From sequence record OZ335961.1: 64,000 nt of DNA. One strand, written 5' to 3'. The notes below the pieces were generated by a model. It was not told the DNA's origin. It worked only from the letters and a program-made list of their open reading frames with translations, and ran no database searches. This document shows positions 1-41,337 of this stretch, piece by piece; positions within the stretch are counted from its first letter, which is position 1, and every line of letters begins with the position of its first letter. The translations under genes and the position numbers were made by a program. This DNA comes from a phage.

Positions 1-1833
<1,833 letters not shown>

Positions 1834-12819: not shown

Positions 12820-13950
12820 TTATGGATAGGTATAGATTATACCAGTTTCTAAAGCAGTTTTATGAATGATGTATCCATTACGCGATTCTTGAACATCGAC
12901 TTCTGGATAGTCTTTTATCATCTTCTGAAGAGTGTAACGATGCAAGTAATACTTACTATCTGGGTCGTCAGTTTTCCAATCTTTACCTTCTTCAGTCATT
13001 TTTTGGATTTCATCCATAACCCACCAACCGCACCAGATATAAGCTGAAGTACGATGTGGAAGAGGATGAACATAAGGCAATTCACCTTCTGGTTCCGGAG
13101 CAACTTTATCAGTTACCTGAACTTGACCAGTCGCTTTAACTGTTTTACTATCATAGTCAGTTGCTGTAACGACAGCAGTAACTTCAATAGTTTGACTTCC
13201 AACAGATGAGGTATCGATAGTATATACGTTAGTTGACCCTTCTACAGGAGAAGAATCTTTCTTCCATGAATAAGTAATTTGTGCTGCTCCAGGCGCGCCA
13301 GTAACATTAGCAGTAAATGTAGCCGAAGCATCTTGCTGAACATTAATAGAAGGAGGAGTCAATGCAATCTGTGGATTCATTGTCTTCTTATTAACTGTCA
13401 ATGATACTTCATTAGAAGTAACTTCTTTTGTATCATAATCAGTCGCGGTTACTTGAGCTACACACTTGATTTTTTTAACTCCGCTTGTAGTAGGAGTGTA
13501 ATTGAATGTAGCAGAAGTTGCTTCGCTTACAGGAGAACCATCTACATGCCACTGATACGTAGCAGATGCGCCTGGTGGTTGAGAAGCTAAGGCAGCAGTA
13601 AATTGAACTGGGGTTCCAATTACTCCAGCTGAAGGACTATCGGGAGTTACTGCCAAGGTAGTTGTCTGTGTCTTGTTTTGAACTGTAATAGTTGTACTAA
13701 TTTCAGCTGTTTCAGCATCAGTATCTGGAATTGTATTTGTTGCAACTACTTTAATAGTCTTTTGACCGGCAGGTCCTTTTAGTACATAACTAAAAGTTGC
13801 TTCAGTTCCATCTTGTGGAACATCGTCTACAGTCCAAGCATAGGTAATAGTTCCACCTCCAGTTTCACCACTGGGTGTAGCAGTAAACTGCTGAGTCTGA
13901 TCAATAACTCCAGTAGGTGTTTTAGGAGTTATATCAACTGTAAAAGCCAT
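12820..13950 (-). CDS. hoc: highly immunogenic outer capsid protein Hoc (Ig-like domains)
   Basis: 376-aa Thr/Val-rich protein with repeated beta-rich modules; T4 length and position. Confidence 0.88.
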   Translation of the reverse strand: MAFTVDITPKTPTGVIDQTQQFTATPSGETGGGTITYAWTVDDVPQDGTEATFSYVLKGPAGQKTIKVVATNTIPDTDAETAEISTTITVQNKTQTTTLAVTPDSPSAGVIGTPVQFTAALASQPPGASATYQWHVDGSPVSEATSATFNYTPTTSGVKKIKCVAQVTATDYDTKEVTSNEVSLTVNKKTMNPQIALTPPSINVQQDASATFTANVTGAPGAAQITYSWKKDSSPVEGSTNVYTIDTSSVGSQTIEVTAVVTATDYDSKTVKATGQVQVTDKVAPEPEGELPYVHPLPHRTSAYIWCGWWVMDEIQKMTEEGKDWKTDDPDSKYYLHRYTLQKMIKDYPEVDVQESRNGYIIHKTALETGIIYTYP

Positions 13951-13959
13951 AAGTTATCC

Positions 13960-14640
13960 TTATTTTAATGTTACGAAAGAAGAATTGCGTGTTTCACGAA
14001 TTAAAACTGATCCGTCACGGTTAATGTAGTAAATTAAGCTAAATAAAGTTTGGTGTGCCGACGCGTGTTCAAAACTAGTTGGGTGAGATTTCCAATCCGG
14101 AGTTTCAGCAATCCATTGATAAATCCACCAAGGAACAGTACAGAATCCTGGATTTTTTCCAATCAGCTGAAGATTCGGGCTAAAGTTTTCCGGAAGAGTA
14201 AATACAGACGGCTTTTCAGATTCAATAATCTCAGCTACAGCCTGCTCAAATTTTTCTTCAACAAAAGGAGTATCTTCAATCAAAACATCGATATTTTCAG
14301 GAATTTTATCCGTTTCTACCACTTCAATTTTAATGTCAGATTTAACCGGAGAATCAATCAGAAGTGCTGCCTCTGGATTGACCTCTTCATCGTCATATTT
14401 TAATCCCTCTGCAGCATCAGCAGCATTAATTAAGTCTTTAATAGATAACCCATCAGTCTCTGGCATAGGTTCACTAGCGAGCTTCTGGAGGGCTTCTTCA
14501 ATATCAATAACGATATTATCAAAAGATTTATTCTTTTTGACCTTTATACCAAACTGTTCAGCATATTCAGCTAATTTAGCTTTAGCTTCTTTATTATCAT
14601 CAAGAGCCTTCAGCTCTGCAATATAATCTTTATCTATCAT
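13960..14640 (-). CDS. inh: Inh, inhibitor of prohead protease
   Basis: 226-aa acidic protein between hoc and uvsW as in T4. Confidence 0.8.
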   Translation of the reverse strand: MIDKDYIAELKALDDNKEAKAKLAEYAEQFGIKVKKNKSFDNIVIDIEEALQKLASEPMPETDGLSIKDLINAADAAEGLKYDDEEVNPEAALLIDSPVKSDIKIEVVETDKIPENIDVLIEDTPFVEEKFEQAVAEIIESEKPSVFTLPENFSPNLQLIGKNPGFCTVPWWIYQWIAETPDWKSHPTSFEHASAHQTLFSLIYYINRDGSVLIRETRNSSFVTLK

Positions 14641-14653
14641 AATATTTCCTCAG

Positions 14654-14661
14654 TATAAATA
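14654..14661 (+). promoter_or_regulatory. late promoter core TATAAATA (uvsW)
   Basis: Exact match about 30 nt upstream of ATG 14691. Confidence 0.6.
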
Positions 14662-14690
14662 TAGATATATTTATTACATGGTATTTAGAC

Positions 14691-16202
14691 ATGACTGACA
14701 TTAAAGTACATTTTTATGATTTTAGTCACGTGAGAATTGATTGTGAAGAAAGTACATTTCATGAACTCCGTGATTTCTTTAGCTTTGAAGCTGATGGGTA
14801 TCGTTTTAATCCGAAGTACAAATATGGCCACTGGGATGGACGAATCCGTCTTTTAGATTATAATCGCCTTCTTCCATTCGGCTTAGTCGGGCAAATTAAA
14901 AAGTTCTGCGATAACTTTGGTTATAAAGCCTGGATTGACCCACAAATTAACGAAAAAGAAGAATTATCAAGAAAAGATTTTGATGAATGGCTTTCTAAAT
15001 TAGAAATCTATTCAGGAAATAAAAGAATTGAACCGCACTGGTATCAAAAAGATGCAGTGTTCGAAGGATTAGTTAATCGTCGTAGAATTCTTAATCTTCC
15101 AACATCCGCAGGTAAATCTTTAATTCAAGCTTTGCTCGCTCGGTATTATTTGGAAAATTATGAAGGTAAAATTCTTATCATTGTTCCAACAACTGCTCTG
15201 ACAACTCAGATGGCTGATGACTTTGTTGACTATCGTTTATTCAGTCATACAATGATAAAGAAAATCGGTGGTGGAGCATCAAAAGATGATAAATATAAAA
15301 ATGATGCACCGGTAATTGTTGGTACATGGCAAACTGTAGTAAAACAACCGAAAGAGTGGTTCTCACAGTTTGGAATGATGATGAATGATGAATGCCATCT
15401 TGCTACTGGAAAAAGTATTTCATCTATCATATCAGGTTTAAATAACTGTATGTTTAAATTTGGTTTGTCTGGTTCATTACGTGATGGCAAAGCTAATATC
15501 ATGCAGTATGTTGGAATGTTTGGTGAAATATTTAAGCCGGTAACGACCTCTAAATTAATGGAAGATGGACAAGTAACTGAGCTAAAAATTAATAGTATTT
15601 TTCTTCGCTATCCCGATGAATTCACTACTAAATTAAAGGGAAAAACTTACCAAGAAGAAATAAAAATTATTACTGGACTCAGTAAAAGAAATAAATGGAT
15701 CGCTAAATTAGCTATTAAGCTTGCGCAAAAAGATGAAAACGCTTTTGTCATGTTTAAGCATGTATCACATGGTAAAGCTATTTTCGATTTAATTAAAAAT
15801 GAATACGATAAAGTTTATTACGTATCAGGAGAAGTTGACACCGAAACGCGCAATGTAATGAAAACCTTGGCTGAAAACGGTAAAGGAATAATTATAGTAG
15901 CTAGTTATGGTGTATTTTCTACTGGTATTTCAGTTAAAAATCTGCATCACGTTGTTTTAGCGCACGGCGTTAAATCTAAAATTATTGTATTACAAACAAT
16001 AGGCCGCGTATTACGTAAGCATGGTTCTAAAACAATCGCAACGGTCTGGGACCTCATAGATGATTGCGGTGTTAAGCCAAAATCTGCTAATACGAAAAAG
16101 AAATACGTTCATTTGAACTATCTTTTAAAACATGGCATTGATCGTATTCAGCGCTACGCAGATGAAAAATTTAATTACGTAATGAAAACAGTTAATTTAT
16201 AA
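14691..16202 (+). CDS. uvsW: UvsW SF2 DNA/RNA-DNA helicase
   Basis: 503-aa ORF with helicase motifs (PTSAGKS Walker A, DECH box in MMNDECHLATG); late promoter core upstream. Confidence 0.92.
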   Translation: MTDIKVHFYDFSHVRIDCEESTFHELRDFFSFEADGYRFNPKYKYGHWDGRIRLLDYNRLLPFGLVGQIKKFCDNFGYKAWIDPQINEKEELSRKDFDEWLSKLEIYSGNKRIEPHWYQKDAVFEGLVNRRRILNLPTSAGKSLIQALLARYYLENYEGKILIIVPTTALTTQMADDFVDYRLFSHTMIKKIGGGASKDDKYKNDAPVIVGTWQTVVKQPKEWFSQFGMMMNDECHLATGKSISSIISGLNNCMFKFGLSGSLRDGKANIMQYVGMFGEIFKPVTTSKLMEDGQVTELKINSIFLRYPDEFTTKLKGKTYQEEIKIITGLSKRNKWIAKLAIKLAQKDENAFVMFKHVSHGKAIFDLIKNEYDKVYYVSGEVDTETRNVMKTLAENGKGIIIVASYGVFSTGISVKNLHHVVLAHGVKSKIIVLQTIGRVLRKHGSKTIATVWDLIDDCGVKPKSANTKKKYVHLNYLLKHGIDRIQRYADEKFNYVMKTVNL

Positions 16203-16217
16203 GGGCTTCGGCCCTTT
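16203..16217 (+). terminator. hairpin after uvsW
   Basis: GGGC-TTCG-GCCC hairpin followed by TTTGG. Confidence 0.45.
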
Positions 16218-16227
16218 GGAGAAAAAG

Positions 16228-16461
16228 ATGTTACTAGAATTTAAACAATTTCTTTATGAAGCTTCTATTGATGAATTTATGGGTAAAATTGCATCATGCC
16301 AAACATTAGAAGGTCTAGAAGAACTTGAAGCTTATTACAAGAAAAGAGTTAAAGAAACTGAATTAAAAGATACTGATGACATCTCAGTCAGAGATGCTTT
16401 GGCAGGAAAAAGAGCTGAATTAGAAGATTCAGACGATGATGAAGTAGAAGAAAGCTTTTAA
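16228..16461 (+). CDS. uvsW.1: UvsW.1 small acidic protein
   Basis: Track ORF opens at TTG 16216; first ATG 16228 follows GGAGAAAAAG RBS. Confidence 0.7.
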   Translation: MLLEFKQFLYEASIDEFMGKIASCQTLEGLEELEAYYKKRVKETELKDTDDISVRDALAGKRAELEDSDDDEVEESF

Positions 16462-17416: not shown

Positions 17417-17815
17417 TTATACTCTGTTACTGGAAGCCAGTTGCAGTTTTATCTGCTCAATATCATCAGGGTTATCGATGACTGAAAAGCGTATTTCTAC
17501 TATCAGAGTATAATCATCATAAACTGGTATTACATTAACTGCTAATTTATCAATACGCGGCTCGTAGTTTCTTACTGCGCTTTCAATGTTACGCTCAACA
17601 GTATCAGCAGTAAGAGGAGTCATATTCTCAAAAAGCTGATCAGATAAATCGCATCCAAATTCTGGGTCAAATGGCCTTGACCCTTTCCTAGTTGTAATAA
17701 TTCCTAAAAGGCTATTTTTAATTGACCTTAATCCAAGGGATCTAGAAACATCTTTATCCCAATCCATTTTCATTTCTGGGTCAATGTCAGAATAAAGCTT
17801 ATTAATATTTGCCAT
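17417..17815 (-). CDS. 25: baseplate wedge / sheath initiator protein
   Basis: 132-aa ORF adjacent to gene 26; T4 length. Confidence 0.9.
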   Translation of the reverse strand: MANINKLYSDIDPEMKMDWDKDVSRSLGLRSIKNSLLGIITTRKGSRPFDPEFGCDLSDQLFENMTPLTADTVERNIESAVRNYEPRIDKLAVNVIPVYDDYTLIVEIRFSVIDNPDDIEQIKLQLASSNRV

Positions 17816-18441
17816 TACAATAGCTCAAAGAATTCTTTGAGTCCTCTTATTACATGAGCGTGAGTTTTTCCACACTCTGGACACTTAATTGGAACAGCCA
17901 AATAAACAGTAGGCTTTAAAAGCATATCTTTTATAGCTACAATATCTGACTCTGTGATGATAGAATATAAATCTTCCAACTCTTTTTCATTCAAGTCTTC
18001 AATTGGAATGCTTTCACCGTTAGCATGAATTGTTTCTATACATGATACTATCATGTGGGCTATATTTTTATCATCAAAAATTTTAGGGTAATGGAACTTA
18101 ATTTTAATGTCACCCAGTGTATACCAGAGGTCTTCTGGTGCATCTATTTGCGTATGTAATAGATTTATATGGGTTGGTATTTCAGTTCCACAGGTGCACT
18201 TCCAGGAGTTTTCGTGATTAACTTCTCCAAGAGAATGCGCCCATAAATGAATCAACAATAGTTCTGATTCTTGGCGGTTTAAATCTTTTGCATTTGTACA
18301 GTCTTTAATTAGCTTTTTAACGATCTCTTCTACTGAACCGTTCTTTTTAGCAGTAATAAGTTCTAGATATTCTTTAAGAGTAAATGCGCGACAGTTGATT
18401 ATTTTAGAACCAACTCTCACATCAAATTTGTATTCATACAT
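17815..18441 (-). CDS. 26: baseplate hub subunit
   Basis: 208-aa ORF; AAGGAG RBS and TATAAATA on minus strand upstream. Confidence 0.88.
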
Positions 18442-18466
18442 ATTTAGCTCCTTTATTTATCATATT

Positions 18467-18474
18467 TATAAATA
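18467..18474. promoter_or_regulatory. bidirectional late promoter core in the 26/51 intergenic region
   Basis: ATTTATAAAT palindrome gives TATAAATA on both strands, flanked by AAGGAG RBS for gene 26 (minus) and gene 51 (plus). Confidence 0.6.
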
Positions 18475-18491
18475 GAATAAAAGGAGCATCT

Positions 18492-19496
18492 ATGGCAAAC
18501 ATTATTCGTTGTAAATTACCAGATGGTGTTCATCGTTTTAAACCATTTACGGTAGAAGATTATCGAGATTTTTTGTTAGTTCGAAACGATATAGAACATC
18601 GGTCACCACAAGAACAAAAAGAAATAATTGCTGATTTAATTGCCGATTATTTTGGAGACTATCCGAAGACTTGGCAACCATTTATATTTTTGCAGGTATT
18701 TGTAGGGTTATTTATCATATTTATAAATAGAATAAAAGGAGCATCTATGGCAAACATTATTCGTTGTAAATTACCAGATGGTGTTCATCGTTTTAAACCA
18801 TTTACGGTAGAAGATTATCGAGATTTTTTGTTAGTTCGAAACGATATAGAACATCGGTCACCACAAGAACAAAAAGAAATAATTGCTGATTTAATTGCCG
18901 ATTATTTTGGAGACTATCCGAAGACTTGGCAACCATTTATATTTTTGCAGGTATTTGTAGGGTCAATAGGTAAAACTAAAGTACCGGTCACATTTGTATG
19001 TCCAAAATGTAAAAAAGAAAAGACAGTTCCATTTGAAATATATCAAAAAGAATTAAAGGAACCTGTTTTTGATGTAGCTAATGTTAAAATTAAATTAAAG
19101 TTTCCTTCTGAGTTTTATGAAAATAAAGCAAAGATGATTACTGAAAATATTCATTCTGTTCAAGTAGATGAAACATGGTATGATTGGAAGGAAATTAGCG
19201 AATCAAGTCAAATAGAACTTGTTGATGCAATCGAGATAGAAACATTAGAAAAAATTCTCGATGCAATGAATCCTATTAATTTAACATTGCATATGTCATG
19301 TTGTAATAAGTATGTAAAAAAATACACTGATATAGTAGATGTGTTTAAGCTATTAGTTAACCCAGATGAAATATTTACTTTTTATCAAATTAATCACACA
19401 CTCGTAAAAAGTAATTATAGCTTAAATTCAATAATGAAAATGATTCCTGCTGAGCGCGGATTCGTATTAAAACTGATTGAGAAGGATAAACAATAA
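18492..19496 (+). CDS. 51: baseplate hub assembly catalyst gp51 carrying an 85-codon in-frame N-terminal tandem duplication (alternative start 18747 gives the normal 249 aa)
   Basis: 334-aa ORF in which residues 1-72 ([12 protein letters not shown]...FLQVFVG) recur at 86-157; second ATG at 18747 has its own TATAAATA and AAGGAG. Confidence 0.85.
18722..18729 (+). promoter_or_regulatory. duplicated late promoter core inside the gene 51 duplication
   Basis: Second copy of TATAAATA with AAGGAG and ATG 18747. Confidence 0.55.
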
Positions 19497-25305: not shown

Positions 25306-25334
25306 TTTGTGTTCCTCATGTTATGTCAGTAAGA

Positions 25335-25366
25335 TTATTATAACACAACACGAGGGACTTGTAAAC
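25335..25366 (-). promoter_or_regulatory. early-type sigma70 promoter (GTTTAC -35, TATAAT -10)
   Basis: Minus strand reads GTTTACAagtccctcgtgttgtgTTATAAT; near-identical block at 41306-41337. Confidence 0.5.
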
Positions 25367-27423
25367 TACATCTTGAACTTTTTAGACATTCCGTTGATGT
25401 TAACTAAAGAAGCTAAGATTTGAGAAACTTCGTTTTCCTCTTCTTTTGATTCTTCTACAAGGAATTGATTAAACCCAGCCATTAGACGAACTTCACCAGT
25501 TTCCATTAGATGATCGCCATCATATACCGATTCTTCTAATTGTTCAGAAGGAGGAACGATTGTGCCTTCGATTAGATACTTGTTATAAGCAGTTTCTTTC
25601 ATCATGTACGTGCTCACTTTATTAATCTTCAGCAAAATTCCACGCGGTAAAATAACTTCAGCTTCTGACGGAAATCCTGATAAATGACCCGGAACGATAA
25701 CTTTAATTCGCTCAGCTCCTTTAATTACCATACCCACGCTAGTTTCAGCATCTTCATTAGCATATGCAGAATGACTACCCATATGCATTAAATCTTCAGC
25801 ATCAACAGAACCTTCTCCTTCACCAGAAAATACTGCGCCGGAATCATCTAGAGACATATAGTTTTTACCATGCTCACCGAAGATATTTGGTTTAAGCGAT
25901 GTTGATACGAAGTTCTTAAAATAGAACATTTTATTTTCAATATTATGACGTAAAGTTTTAAAAGTAACTTCTTGCCCACGATAAAGCGTAGTTCCTGGAG
26001 GAAGAACTGATCCTTTGGCGAATGCAGAATCCAGCGTCTCGATGCGTTTAATAGCTCGTTCCATGTATTCTTCACGGGTAGAATCTGGTTTACCTAAGAG
26101 GAACGAGTTCATTTCAACATATGAATCTGCACAATAATCTTCAATTACATCAGACTCAGACTGAGTTAATCCTTTTGGAGTTACTTCGGTGCTTGCGTAT
26201 TCATATGCCTGAGCAGCAGATTCATTAATCAATTTATAAATGTTATTCATGACAAATTGAATAATAGCTACCTTTTCGTCTGGTGTGGCTTTAGAACCTT
26301 TAACTAAATCATTGATAATTTTCTTAATAACATCAAAGCTATTAGAAATATTAATGTCAGCGAGATCGCTTAAAATTTTATCAGTTTTATAATCAAAAAA
26401 TTCTTTATTCTTTAAATATTCTTGAGAACCTTGATATGTTATATCGCTCTGCAGCTTGATAGATGGATCACGTAAACGTGCATGGGCCAATGCAATATGA
26501 TTTCGGAAGCTTTCTAGTTCATAATCGTTAGATTTAAAACGAGAAGCACTTCTCATACCACCGATAGCTCCTTTGCTGAAGTTGGAACCAATCTGAATAA
26601 CACCAGAGTTCATTGGTCCTTCTGCTTTATATACCGGAACTTTAGATTCAAACTCTTGATATTTCTTGGCAGCGAAGCTATCACCCTGAAGTGAAGCATC
26701 GACAGTAGAATATTGAGCTTGTGCTGCTAATCGACGGCTAATTTTAGTTTTCTGAATAACAGCTTGATCCGTGCGCTTATCATTTTCTAAAGCAATAGAA
26801 GCAGCCACAGCAACGGCTTTAGGAACAGCATTACCTGTTTTAACATCTACATAAACATCACCAACCTTTGATTCAACTTTTGTGAATAACTCAGTTGAAA
26901 TAGGAGGTACACCTGGAATGTCTTCTAAATTGGCATTTTTACGGTAAACCATAATATATGCATACTTTTTATCATAATCCCAGATTTCTTTTAAAAGAAC
27001 ATATCGACCTGCTCCTTTAGTACGTACTAAACGGTCAGCAATAACTTGCATTTGACGAGCAGCGCCATTTGTTTTACTTTTTAGTACGCGGAATAGGCAT
27101 GCGTCAATTTTATACTGTTTCATTGTTTGAAGAGCAGTATCAAAAACCGCATTAATGACACCAATTGGATTTCCACCCAAGTTTTTAAGTTTAACTAATG
27201 ATAGTTTCTCATTGACACCTATCATTACGATATGCATCATTTTATCGCCTGGCTTAACGTTTTTATTTGTATCACCGCCAGAGGTGTATGTACAAAATCT
27301 AAATCCAGGAAGTACACTTTCTTCGCCGGCTTGAATAGCAAAAATTTGAGGTATTTTATGCTTAGGATTTAAGTTAACAACCGGCGCCGAAGCGCCGTCA
27401 AATAATTCTGTAATAAGTTCCAT
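25366..27423 (-). CDS. Alt-like mono-ADP-ribosyltransferase (second paralogue)
   Basis: 685-aa ORF starting MELITELFD like its neighbour; C-terminal R / STS / EAE triad (LYRGQ ... FVSTSL ... SEAEVILPRG); AAGGA RBS. Confidence 0.8.
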   Translation of the reverse strand: MELITELFDGASAPVVNLNPKHKIPQIFAIQAGEESVLPGFRFCTYTSGGDTNKNVKPGDKMMHIVMIGVNEKLSLVKLKNLGGNPIGVINAVFDTALQTMKQYKIDACLFRVLKSKTNGAARQMQVIADRLVRTKGAGRYVLLKEIWDYDKKYAYIMVYRKNANLEDIPGVPPISTELFTKVESKVGDVYVDVKTGNAVPKAVAVAASIALENDKRTDQAVIQKTKISRRLAAQAQYSTVDASLQGDSFAAKKYQEFESKVPVYKAEGPMNSGVIQIGSNFSKGAIGGMRSASRFKSNDYELESFRNHIALAHARLRDPSIKLQSDITYQGSQEYLKNKEFFDYKTDKILSDLADINISNSFDVIKKIINDLVKGSKATPDEKVAIIQFVMNNIYKLINESAAQAYEYASTEVTPKGLTQSESDVIEDYCADSYVEMNSFLLGKPDSTREEYMERAIKRIETLDSAFAKGSVLPPGTTLYRGQEVTFKTLRHNIENKMFYFKNFVSTSLKPNIFGEHGKNYMSLDDSGAVFSGEGEGSVDAEDLMHMGSHSAYANEDAETSVGMVIKGAERIKVIVPGHLSGFPSEAEVILPRGILLKINKVSTYMMKETAYNKYLIEGTIVPPSEQLEESVYDGDHLMETGEVRLMAGFNQFLVEESKEEENEVSQILASLVNINGMSKKFKM

Positions 27424-27426
27424 GAT

Positions 27427-29520
27427 TTATCCTTGAACGAACTTGTAAGGCATGTTTGCGATATCTATGCAAGACGCAATAATTCCAAGAGATGATTCTA
27501 CTTTCTGTTTAACATTTGATGAAACGAATGATGCAAAGTCAACTCTGTCTTCTATTTCAATATCACCTGTCATTGCAACTACTTCACCAGTTTCCATTAG
27601 ACGGTCACCGTCATAAATTACTGATTCGGTGAGTTCTTCCGTAGTCATAACTTCAGCTTGAATGAGTTTTGTATTATTAGATGTTGTTCCGTCATTATTA
27701 GAAGCATCAGTTATTTTATTAACTTTGACCATCAATCCGCGCGGTAGAATAACTTCAGCTTCTGTTGCTATTCCGAGACTTCCTGGATATACAACATTAA
27801 CTTTATGAGCTCCATCAATTGCCCATCCTATTTGAACTTTAACGTATTCAGGATTTTCTTTATACGCTCTTATTTCGTTTGGATTAATAGTTATTCCTTC
27901 TTCATTTTTATCAACTGTCAATTCATTACGAGCTTCTGGTTCTAAAAGACCAATACCAGCATGCGTAATTCCAAAACGTCCAAAAATGATAGGAGTTAAA
28001 GAAGTAGATACAAAATTTCTGAAATAGAACACTTTATTTTTAACTAGTGCTTCGTATATAGGAGCAGTCATACTTTGAGCACGATAAACTGTAATGCCTT
28101 CTGGTATACGATCACCATTTTCAAAAGCTGAGTCTAAGTTATTTATAGCAGATTCAATTTCTTTTTCACTCATTACATCATATCGTTCTGGATTGTAGCG
28201 GCCTAAAAGAAGATTATTGATGTCAGTATATCCTGATCCACAGTACTCTCTAATGCCGCGCTTTTGTGATGGAGTATATTTAGAACCATCACGGGCAATA
28301 GTAATATCAATCATTGGACCTGCACCAATTCCAGAAAAGCTATAAATCATTCTTTTGAGGAATTTAGTTTTTGCTGCGTTCCAGGAATTTTTAGTTATTT
28401 CTTCCCAGACTTCATCTGGCTGTCCTTTACGGGTTTTATTATGTTTATCAAGCCAAGTATCTTTATATTCTTCAAAGAATTTATTAATAGCTGCTGCATA
28501 CTTCTCTAAACATTTTATTGAAGTAGTTGGTTCATTTTTAATCGCATTAAGAATTACGTCTTTAATTTTTTCAGAAACTTCATTAACCTCACTTTTTGAA
28601 AAGAATTTATAATCATAGTGAAGTTCATCTGCGGTTCCTTCGGCAATAATTTTTGCTGCCTTAGTTTTAGAAGCTAATGAATTGATTCCAAGTTTCATTT
28701 CTTCTGCTTCGGGAATTAAAGGAGCTGTAGCAGGTTTATTGAAATTAGCTGCGGTAGATTCATACTTTTGGAATAATTCACTTTCAAATCTAGAAGATTC
28801 CAATGACTGGCTTTGTGCAATTGCTCTACGGGAAATTTTAACTTTAACGATTACAGCTTGGTCAGAACGTTTATCATTTTCTTGTGCAATAGATGCCGCA
28901 ATTGCCTCATTTTTAGTTACTTGAGCTCCAGTATCTTTATTGATATAAACATCACCGACCTTCGATTCAACTTTAGTAAAGAGCTCGGTACTAATTTCAG
29001 GAACTCCTGGGATGTCTTCTAATGATACATTTTTGCGATGTATAAGAATATATGCATACTTTTTATCGTAATCCCAGAGTTCCTTAAGAAGGACGTATCT
29101 GCCACCTGAACGACTGCGGATAAGTCTATCAGCAATAACTTGAATTTGTCGAGCTTGACCAGCAGTTTTAGACTTAAGAATACGAAGCATACAGGCATCA
29201 ATTTTATACTGGCGCATCGTCTGCATTGCAACAGTAAAAACTGAATTGATGTAATTAATTGGGCTTGGACCGAGACCTTTTAATTTAGCAATTGAACCTT
29301 TAGCGGTTAATGTAAAAGGAACAATGTGCATCATTTTATCGCCCATCTTTAAATCGCGATTAGTATCACCTCCAGATGTATAGGTACATAAACGAAAGCC
29401 TGGTTGTTCAATTGCGTCATCAACATGAACTGAAAAAATTTGCGGTATTTTCTTCTTTGGATTTAAGTTTGTAATCGGAAGAGTAGTATCTTCGTCAAAT
29501 AATTCTGTAATGAGTTCCAT
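27427..29520 (-). CDS. alt: Alt ADP-ribosyltransferase (head-packaged internal protein)
   Basis: 697/698-aa ORF (MMELITELFD; second ATG better spaced from AGAGGA); R / STS / EAE triad (VYRAQ ... FVSTSL ... TEAEVILPRG); minus-strand TATAAATA upstream. Confidence 0.85.
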   Translation of the reverse strand: MELITELFDEDTTLPITNLNPKKKIPQIFSVHVDDAIEQPGFRLCTYTSGGDTNRDLKMGDKMMHIVPFTLTAKGSIAKLKGLGPSPINYINSVFTVAMQTMRQYKIDACMLRILKSKTAGQARQIQVIADRLIRSRSGGRYVLLKELWDYDKKYAYILIHRKNVSLEDIPGVPEISTELFTKVESKVGDVYINKDTGAQVTKNEAIAASIAQENDKRSDQAVIVKVKISRRAIAQSQSLESSRFESELFQKYESTAANFNKPATAPLIPEAEEMKLGINSLASKTKAAKIIAEGTADELHYDYKFFSKSEVNEVSEKIKDVILNAIKNEPTTSIKCLEKYAAAINKFFEEYKDTWLDKHNKTRKGQPDEVWEEITKNSWNAAKTKFLKRMIYSFSGIGAGPMIDITIARDGSKYTPSQKRGIREYCGSGYTDINNLLLGRYNPERYDVMSEKEIESAINNLDSAFENGDRIPEGITVYRAQSMTAPIYEALVKNKVFYFRNFVSTSLTPIIFGRFGITHAGIGLLEPEARNELTVDKNEEGITINPNEIRAYKENPEYVKVQIGWAIDGAHKVNVVYPGSLGIATEAEVILPRGLMVKVNKITDASNNDGTTSNNTKLIQAEVMTTEELTESVIYDGDRLMETGEVVAMTGDIEIEDRVDFASFVSSNVKQKVESSLGIIASCIDIANMPYKFVQG

Positions 29521-29543
29521 CATATCCTCTCTAGTGTTTATTC

Positions 29544-41279: not shown

Positions 41280-41305
41280 AAAGTCCTCATGTTATGTCAG
41301 TAAGA

Positions 41306-41337
41306 CTACTATAACACAACACGAGGGACTTGTAAAC
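41306..41337 (-). promoter_or_regulatory. early-type promoter upstream of alc
   Basis: Minus strand reads GTTTACAagtccctcgtgttgtgTTATAGT with a leader near-identical to the 25335-25366 block. Confidence 0.5.

What the first reader, a model, noticed from the sequence alone, without database searches (positions are those of the whole stretch)
18453..18962. Perfect 255-bp in-frame tandem duplication of the promoter, RBS and 5' end of baseplate gene 51
Positions 18453-18707 and 18708-18962 are identical. Each copy carries the late-promoter core TATAAATA (18467-18474 and 18722-18729), an AAGGAG Shine-Dalgarno and the gene 51 ATG (18492 and 18747) with the first 72 codons. Because 255 is a multiple of 3, translation from the first ATG reads through the duplicated promoter and RBS (translated as [13 protein letters not shown]) into the second copy, giving a 334-aa protein; the second ATG would give a normal 249-aa product. 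Both the native-length gp51 and a longer N-terminally duplicated form could therefore be made. A perfect tandem repeat of this length should be lost quickly by homologous recombination in a T-even phage, so it is either very recent, maintained by selection, engineered, or an assembly artefact. Every other baseplate gene here has the T4 length I remember.
Basis: seen in the sequence. Interest (0 to 1): 0.75.

Follow-up and report, generated by a model that had tools for sequence, protein, structure and literature searches.

The report
Likely assembly-overlap duplication in gene 51
The perfect 255-base tandem repeat at the start of baseplate gene 51 is really in the sequence, but it is most likely leftover end-overlap from assembling a circular phage genome that was then rotated to start at the terminase gene, not a biological duplication.

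Summary

The biological reading is probably wrong.
- The repeat period is exactly 255. That is odd, equals 2^8-1, and is a maximum k-mer size used with MEGAHIT. De Bruijn assemblers leave an identical repeat of length k at both ends of a contig built from a circular template.
- The window starts on the first base of the large-terminase ATG and cuts the overlapping 3' end of gene 16. The sequence was therefore rotated after assembly, and rotation turns an untrimmed end overlap into an internal tandem duplication.
- The breakpoints share only 1 base of identity, which is the chance value. Documented T4 duplications use 2-10 bp microhomologies.
- The junction is absent from 50,697 phage records, IMG/VR, JGI metagenomes and GTDB genomes.
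- About 500 relatives appear to hold one copy each (rows shown for 40). All 98 gp51 clusters are 220-266 aa.

The source record and its reads could not be found, so a real, very recent duplication remains possible (about 10%). Interest is low.

The parts
18453..18707 (.). Repeat copy 1. It holds 39 bases of the gene 26 / gene 51 intergenic region plus codons 1-72 of gene 51. Under the artefact model this is the last 255 bases of the original contig.
   Evidence: Its left edge and start are colinear with T4.
18708..18962 (.). Repeat copy 2, 100% identical to copy 1. Under the artefact model this is the first 255 bases of the original contig.
   Evidence: Its end and the right flank are colinear with T4.
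18688..18727 (.). Copy-to-copy junction 40-mer TTTTGCAGGTATTTGTAGGG|TTATTTATCATATTTATAAA. This is the only sequence here that a single-copy genome lacks.
   Evidence: No match in 50,697 phage records, with a positive control under DUST. Exact junction patterns are absent from IMG/VR, JGI metagenomes and GTDB genomes.
18467..18474 (+). Late-promoter core TATAAATA for gene 51, copy 1. The duplicate is at 18722-18729.
   Evidence: The consensus is from established T4 knowledge.
18463..18470 (-). Late-promoter core TATAAATA on the minus strand, facing gene 26, copy 1. The duplicate is at 18718-18725. It overlaps the gene 51 core within the palindrome-like TATTTATAAATA.
18481..18486 (+). Shine-Dalgarno AAGGAG of gene 51, copy 1. 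The duplicate is at 18736-18741.
18492..19496 (+). 334-aa reading frame created by the repeat: gp51 residues 1-72, then the 13-aa linker [13 protein letters not shown], then full gp51.
   Evidence: Pfam finds a full T4_baseplate match at residues 86-286 plus a second partial stretch. This exact protein is not on record in the 153-billion-gene index.
18747..19496 (+). Native-length gene 51 (baseplate hub assembly protein, 249 aa).
   Evidence: The exact protein is found in 197 blocks of the collection, always as a single-copy gene in the loci read. T4 gene 51 is 750 bases and follows a 50-base spacer.
17815..18441 (-). Gene 26 (baseplate hub, 208 aa), transcribed divergently from gene 51. Its Shine-Dalgarno (CTCCT on the + strand at 18448) lies just outside the repeat.
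1..1833 (+). Large terminase gene (gp17, 610 aa) starting on window base 1. The 3' end of gene 16, which overlaps this start by 17 bases in relatives, is cut off. This is evidence that the assembly was rotated to terL.
   Evidence: Tools that do this are described in PMC13338908.

Best explanation
The duplication is most likely an assembly and circularisation artefact.

Proposed sequence of events:
1. A circularly permuted T-even genome was assembled with a de Bruijn assembler whose final k was 255.
2. The circular path was written out as a linear contig whose first and last 255 bases were the same sequence. The contig started at window 18708 and ended at window 18707.
3. The contig was then re-oriented to begin at the terL start codon by cutting it and joining old end to old start, without trimming the overlap.
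4. That join placed the two copies head to tail inside gene 51.

Shown directly: the exact repeat, its period of 255, the rotation to terL, the absence of microhomology, and the absence of the junction elsewhere.

Inferred: which assembler and k were used, and that the overlap was left untrimmed.

If this is right, the phage has one ordinary 249-aa gp51 and no 334-aa form exists.
For: 1. The period is exactly 255 and the copies are 100% identical. CheckV (PMC8116208, Extended Data Fig. 3 legend) reports that assemblers break a circular template at a random place and leave a repeat at the contig's start and end equal to the odd k-mer length. COBRA (PMC10914622) states that the end overlap is maxK for metaSPAdes and MEGAHIT. 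'--k-max 255' with MEGAHIT appears in 8 held papers, one of them a phage virome. That 255 is MEGAHIT's upper limit is from my memory of its help text.

2. The sequence was rotated. Window base 1 is the A of the terL ATG, giving a full 610-aa protein with Terminase_6N and Terminase_6C. In relatives gene 16 overlaps that start by 17 bases, so this opening point truncates gene 16. That is typical of automated terL re-orientation with Pharokka or Dnaapler (PMC13338908).

3. The breakpoints look random. Flanking identity is 0 bases on the left and 1 on the right. Among random 255-base segments of this window, 80% have 0 or 1 base and only 0.5% have 6 or more. Real T4 duplications have 6-10 bp, or 2-10 bp, microhomology at their boundaries (PMC9391042).

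4. The junction occurs nowhere else. The 40 related phage records listed each hold one copy. The 20 related loci read all call gene 51 at 249-250 aa. All 98 gp51 clusters in a 5.8-billion-protein database are 220-266 aa.

5. The breakpoint cuts the T4_baseplate domain at about residue 72 of 219, so it respects no functional boundary.

6. Neighbouring genes have the lengths seen in relatives, which fits an accurate short-read assembly.
Against: - Neither the reads, the assembly log nor the source record could be found. The assembler and k are therefore inferred, not seen.
- k = 255 is an uncommon setting and needs reads longer than 255 bases.
- A real duplication would also be perfect if recent, and would be viable because copy 2 is a complete gene with its own promoter and RBS.
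- Rotation to terL would have been applied to a genuine genome as well, so it shows opportunity, not proof.
- Junctions with 0-1 base of homology are not impossible for illegitimate recombination.
Confidence: 0.84

Rival explanations
1. This is a real, very recent tandem duplication in the phage genome. It arose by illegitimate recombination or replication slippage and has not yet been removed by T4's active homologous recombination. Late transcripts would then give both native 249-aa gp51, from the second ATG, and a 334-aa form with an N-terminal extension, from the first ATG. The second minus-strand late promoter would add antisense transcription across copy 1 into gene 26.
For: - The sequence as given encodes exactly this.
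- The arrangement would be viable because copy 2 is a complete gene.
- T4 does form tandem duplications and amplifications readily (PMC9391042).
- Natural tandem duplications do persist in T-even genes. An example is the 288-base Ig-domain repeats of hoc.
Against: - There is no microhomology at the boundaries: 1 base, which is the chance level. Documented T4 events have 2-10 bp.
- The length coincides exactly with an assembler k value.
- The breakpoint falls inside a domain.
- It is unique among about 500 relatives, four sequence collections and 98 gp51 clusters.
- Nothing points to a selective benefit.
Confidence: 0.1
2. The duplication is real and held in place by selection. It might raise gp51 or gp26 expression through doubled divergent late promoters, or supply a useful longer gp51 isoform.
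For: Both the gene 51 and the gene 26 late-promoter cores are duplicated. The fusion is in frame.
Against: - All the points against the rival above apply.
- gp51 length is tightly conserved at 220-266 aa across the whole family, down to 39% identity.
- No second lineage carries the duplication.
- The in-frame property is not needed, because copy 2 is autonomous.
- The extension is a truncated domain fragment plus a translated promoter.
Confidence: 0.02
3. The duplication was introduced deliberately, either as an engineered construct or as a synthetic edit of the sequence.
For: It is perfect, and the window's genome is not found in any public collection searched.
Against: The junction is a bare end-to-start join with no linker, tag, restriction-site scar or foreign sequence. 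There is no obvious design purpose, and the rest of the region is ordinary Tequatrovirus sequence.
Confidence: 0.04

Closest known systems
k-mer-length direct terminal repeats on contigs assembled from circular or circularly permuted viral genomes (CheckV, PMC8116208; COBRA, PMC10914622)
   Same: The repeat is exact, has two copies, has an odd length equal to an assembler k, sits at an arbitrary place relative to genes, and does not exist in the virus itself.
   Different: Here the two copies are adjacent inside the sequence rather than at its two ends. This is explained by the later rotation to terL. Also, k = 255 is far less common than 55, 77, 99, 127 or 141.
Microhomology-mediated tandem duplications and segmental amplifications of phage T4, such as rII duplications and the dmd-tifA amplification (Srikant et al. 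2022, PMC9391042)
   Same: Both are head-to-tail repeats of a genome segment in a T-even phage, and both are unstable in principle.
   Different: The documented events are bounded by 2-10 bp microhomologies, are usually kilobases long, arise under strong selection, and are confirmed by coverage and junction PCR. Here the microhomology is 1 base, the unit is 255 bases, and no selection or read support is known.
Ig-like domain tandem repeats in hoc of T-even phages
   Same: Both are in-frame tandem repeats inside a structural-module gene of the same genomes (period 288 bases).
   Different: The hoc repeats are domain-precise, old (75-80% identical), vary in number between strains and are shared by many genomes. 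The gene 51 repeat cuts a domain, is 100% identical and is unique.

Membership tests
Untrimmed assembler end-overlap carried inside by rotation (artefact) | Exactly two copies, strictly tandem, 100% identical | tested here: met
Untrimmed assembler end-overlap carried inside by rotation (artefact) | Period equals an odd k-mer size usable in an assembler whose end overlap is k | tested here: met
   The period is 255. MEGAHIT '--k-max 255' is in use. The overlap equals maxK for MEGAHIT. The actual assembler used for this sequence is unknown.
Untrimmed assembler end-overlap carried inside by rotation (artefact) | The sequence was circularly re-oriented after assembly | tested here: met
   Base 1 is the terL ATG, and the overlapping end of gene 16 is cut off.
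Untrimmed assembler end-overlap carried inside by rotation (artefact) | Breakpoints are random with respect to sequence and gene structure | tested here: met
   Flanking identity is 1 base, against a chance P(<=1) of 0.80. The breakpoint falls inside the PF12322 domain.
Untrimmed assembler end-overlap carried inside by rotation (artefact) | No sequencing read contains the copy-to-copy junction | not testable with these tools
   The reads and the source record were not found.
Microhomology-mediated tandem duplication of T4 | Head-to-tail copies of a contiguous genome segment | tested here: met
Microhomology-mediated tandem duplication of T4 | Short (2-10 bp) microhomology at the two boundaries, with one copy retained at the junction | tested here: not met
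   Only 1 base is shared. The criterion comes from PMC9391042.
Microhomology-mediated tandem duplication of T4 | Junction supported by reads or PCR, and doubled read depth over the unit | not testable with these tools
   No reads are available.
gp51 baseplate hub assembly protein (the 249-aa ORF at 18747-19496) | Full-length T4_baseplate (PF12322) match, position between genes 26 and 27, and a length of about 250 aa | tested here: met
   Pfam E-value 5e-56. Synteny and length match T4 and 20 relatives. The nearest cluster is 98% identical.
Physical direct terminal repeats of a phage chromosome | The repeat lies at the fixed ends of the packaged DNA | tested here: not met
   The repeat is internal and interrupts an essential gene. 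From established knowledge, T4-type phages package by headful with permuted ends and kilobase-scale redundancy.

The most novel reading that the evidence does not exclude
The duplication is real. A natural Tequatrovirus isolate would then carry a freshly arisen 255-base tandem duplication of the divergent 26/51 late-promoter region and the first 72 codons of gene 51. It would have formed without microhomology, and it would produce both native gp51 and an N-terminally extended isoform. That would be a snapshot of a duplication before recombination removes it.
Probability: 0.1. Interest if true: 0.35.

Novelty: not a real feature. Interest (0 to 1): 0.08.

Why it matters
It matters mainly for data quality. 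If this sequence is annotated as it stands, it gains a false 334-aa gp51 and an extra promoter. The genome length is also too long by 255 bases. The case gives a simple rule for spotting the problem: suspect an untrimmed assembler overlap when a rotated phage genome contains a perfect two-copy tandem repeat whose period is an odd k-mer value. If the duplication were real, it would be a modest curiosity about how often T-even genomes carry transient duplications. It would not be a new kind of system.

Tried and rejected
**Search for the source record or reads (nothing found)**
- Best phage records are 97.5% identical over 22 kb and 98.6% over terL.
- Nothing in the E. coli genome or plasmid collections.
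- Window-specific 80-100-mers are absent from IMG/VR and JGI metagenomes.
- The exact UvsW protein led only to a Logan contig that is 97% identical, so a different phage.
- The exact gp48 is not on record.

**Junction queries**
- A 100-base junction query was uninformative because BLAST joined the two halves. I replaced it with a 40-mer and checked that with a positive control.
I used a 100-mer instead.

**Other leads**
- A horse-faeces virome paper that used MEGAHIT with k-max 255 was considered as a possible source. Nothing links it to this window. I cite it only as proof that k = 255 is used.

**Rejected readings**
- Physical terminal repeat: the repeat is internal, and T4-type phages package by headful.
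- Engineered insert: there is no scar and no foreign sequence.
- Chance repeat: impossible at 255 exact bases.

**Not attempted**
- Structure prediction of the 334-aa protein. It would not distinguish an artefact from a real duplication.

Full report
**1. Observation**

Window 18453-18707 and 18708-18962 are identical over 255 bases and lie head to tail. TRF reports period 255, 2.0 copies, 100% matches, no indels and score 1022. The repeat finder family D1 agrees, as does a direct string comparison.

- TATAAATA on the + strand starts at 18467 and 18722.
- AAGGAG starts at 18481 and 18736.
- The ATGs are at 18492 and 18747.
- The reading frame 18492-19496 gives 334 aa. It consists of gp51 residues 1-72, the linker [13 protein letters not shown], and full-length gp51. 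The frame from 18747 gives 249 aa.

I add two points. Each unit also holds a minus-strand late-promoter core, seen as TATTTATA on the + strand at 18463 and 18718. It faces gene 26, so the unit duplicates a pair of overlapping divergent late promoters. The Shine-Dalgarno of gene 26 (CTCCT at 18448) lies just outside the unit.

It is the only exact long repeat in the window.

**2. Genes and context**

The region is ordinary Tequatrovirus sequence. In T4, gene 26, a 50-base spacer and the 750-base gene 51 have the same layout as one copy here.

An alignment to T4 shows three things. The left flank plus the start of copy 1 is colinear with T4. The end of copy 2 plus the right flank is colinear with T4. 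Only the copy-to-copy junction is new.

The 249-aa product matches the whole Pfam T4_baseplate model. The 334-aa product has that full match at residues 86-286 plus a partial second stretch. The breakpoint therefore cuts the domain at about residue 72 of 219.

**3. Is the duplication found anywhere else? No.**

- About 500 related phage records match the region. The 40 best each span 1,246 bases for the 1,501-base query, which means one copy.
- A 40-mer centred on the junction has too little sequence on either side to seed a half-match. It finds nothing in 50,697 phage records. A local control shows that the low-complexity filter does not hide it.
- Exact junction patterns are absent from IMG/VR, JGI metagenomes and GTDB genomes.
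- The 334-aa protein is not on record in the exact-protein index. The 249-aa protein is on record in 197 blocks.
- All 20 related loci read call gene 51 at 249-250 aa, and none contains the junction.
- In the 5.8-billion-protein database, all 98 gp51 clusters are 220-266 aa, down to 39% identity and spanning Escherichia to Aeromonas and Acinetobacter phages. None covers more than 75% of the 334-aa query.

**4. Provenance**

The source genome could not be found.
- The best phage records are 97.5% identical over 22 kb and 98.6% over terL.
- There is nothing in the E. coli genome or plasmid collections.
- Window-specific probes are absent from IMG/VR and JGI metagenomes.
- The exact UvsW protein occurs only on a Logan contig that is 97% identical, so a different phage.
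- The exact gp48 is not on record.

No reads could therefore be examined, and the verdict rests on the internal evidence below.

**5. The period is an assembler constant**

255 is odd and equals 2^8-1.

CheckV's Extended Data Fig. 3 legend reports that many direct terminal repeats on assembled viral contigs have specific odd lengths that match assembler k-mer sizes. [quoted passage not shown]

COBRA states that the end overlap equals maxK for metaSPAdes and MEGAHIT, and maxK-1 for IDBA_UD (PMC10914622).

MEGAHIT run with '--k-max 255' appears in eight held papers, one of them a dsDNA phage virome study. That 255 is MEGAHIT's upper limit, and 127 is SPAdes's, is from my memory of their documentation.

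**6. The sequence was rotated**

Window base 1 is the A of the ATG of the large terminase gene. The ORF 1-1833 encodes 610 aa and matches Terminase_6N and Terminase_6C.

In relatives the small terminase gene overlaps that start codon by 17 bases. This opening point therefore cuts off the end of gene 16. A natural contig end or a hand-chosen intergenic opening would not do that. Automated re-orientation to terL does, for example with Pharokka's --dnaapler or --terminase options (PMC13338908).

Rotating a linear contig joins its old end to its old start. If a k-base overlap was not trimmed first, the join creates a perfect two-copy tandem repeat of period k. On this model the original contig began at window 18708 and ended at 18707.

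**7. The breakpoints look random**

The two boundaries share 0 bases of identity on the left and 1 on the right. I took every 255-base segment of the collapsed window as a null model. Of these, 80% have 0 or 1 base, 20% have 2 or more, and 0.5% have 6 or more.

Experimentally verified T4 amplifications are bounded by microhomologies, typically of 6-10 bp. Earlier T4 work found 2-10 bp (PMC9391042). The signature expected of a real T4 duplication is therefore missing, and the value expected of a random cut is present.

**8. Base rate**

In about 500 kb of this and related T-even sequence, the only other long-period tandem repeats are the 288-base Ig-domain repeats of hoc. These are 75-80% identical. 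They are domain-precise, old and shared between genomes, which is the opposite of the gene 51 repeat on each count.

**9. Weighing**

Perfect identity, uniqueness and viability fit both an artefact and a very recent real duplication. Two observations discriminate between them. One is the exact coincidence with k = 255. The other is the lack of microhomology. The demonstrated rotation supplies the step the artefact model needs.

| Reading | Probability |
|---|---|
| Artefact | about 0.84 |
| Real recent duplication | about 0.10 |
| Real duplication maintained by selection | about 0.02 |
| Deliberate edit | about 0.04 |

It has no bearing on viability, because copy 2 is a complete gene with its own promoter and RBS.

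**10. What would settle it**

Reads containing the junction 40-mer, doubled read depth over the unit, or an 801-bp rather than a 546-bp PCR product across 18300-19100 would show that the duplication is real. Their absence would confirm the artefact. So would an assembly log with a final k of 255 and contig ends at 18707/18708.

**11. Verdict**

The most probable explanation is an untrimmed k = 255 end overlap carried inside the sequence by rotation to terL. This is not a real biological feature, and interest is low.

Noticed in passing
window 1-17: The window starts exactly on the terL (gp17) ATG. In relatives the small terminase gene 16 overlaps this start by 17 bases. Its last codons are therefore split off, presumably to the far end of the source record.
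   Followed up: yes
window 25313-25366 and 41284-41337: A 54-base element occurs twice at 96% identity. On the minus (transcribed) strand it reads GTTTAC-N18-TATAAT (TATAGT in the second copy) and overlaps a stable hairpin (-21.4 and -27.3 kcal/mol; z -4.2 and -4.4). It looks like a T4 early promoter plus stem-loop cassette. The resemblance to 'PeSL' elements is from my memory, not a test.
   Followed up: partly
window 12820-13950; L005, L011, L013, L015, L016, L018, L020: hoc is 376 aa here but 472 or 664 aa in several relatives. Those relatives carry tandem 288-base (96-aa Ig-domain) repeats that are 75-80% identical. This is a real, old, domain-precise tandem duplication that varies in copy number between strains.
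   Followed up: partly
window 14640-14691 and 16202-16300: There is no segE homing endonuclease between inh and uvsW, and no NUMOD3 endonuclease gene after uvsW. T4 and several related loci do carry one or the other.
   Followed up: no
window 17815-18441 and 18747-19496: gp26 and gp51 each match the whole Pfam T4_baseplate model (PF12322). They are divergently transcribed paralogues sharing one 50-base control region with overlapping late-promoter cores (TATTTATAAATA).
   Followed up: partly
window 25366-27423 and 27427-29523: Two adjacent Alt-type ADP-ribosyltransferase genes (685 and 698 aa) share stretches of about 70-78% nucleotide identity. The same pair is present in most relatives.
   Followed up: no
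whole window: The genome is not in any collection searched. The best public relatives are 97.5-98.6% identical. No tRNA gene and no Rfam family match was found in the 64 kb.
   Followed up: yes
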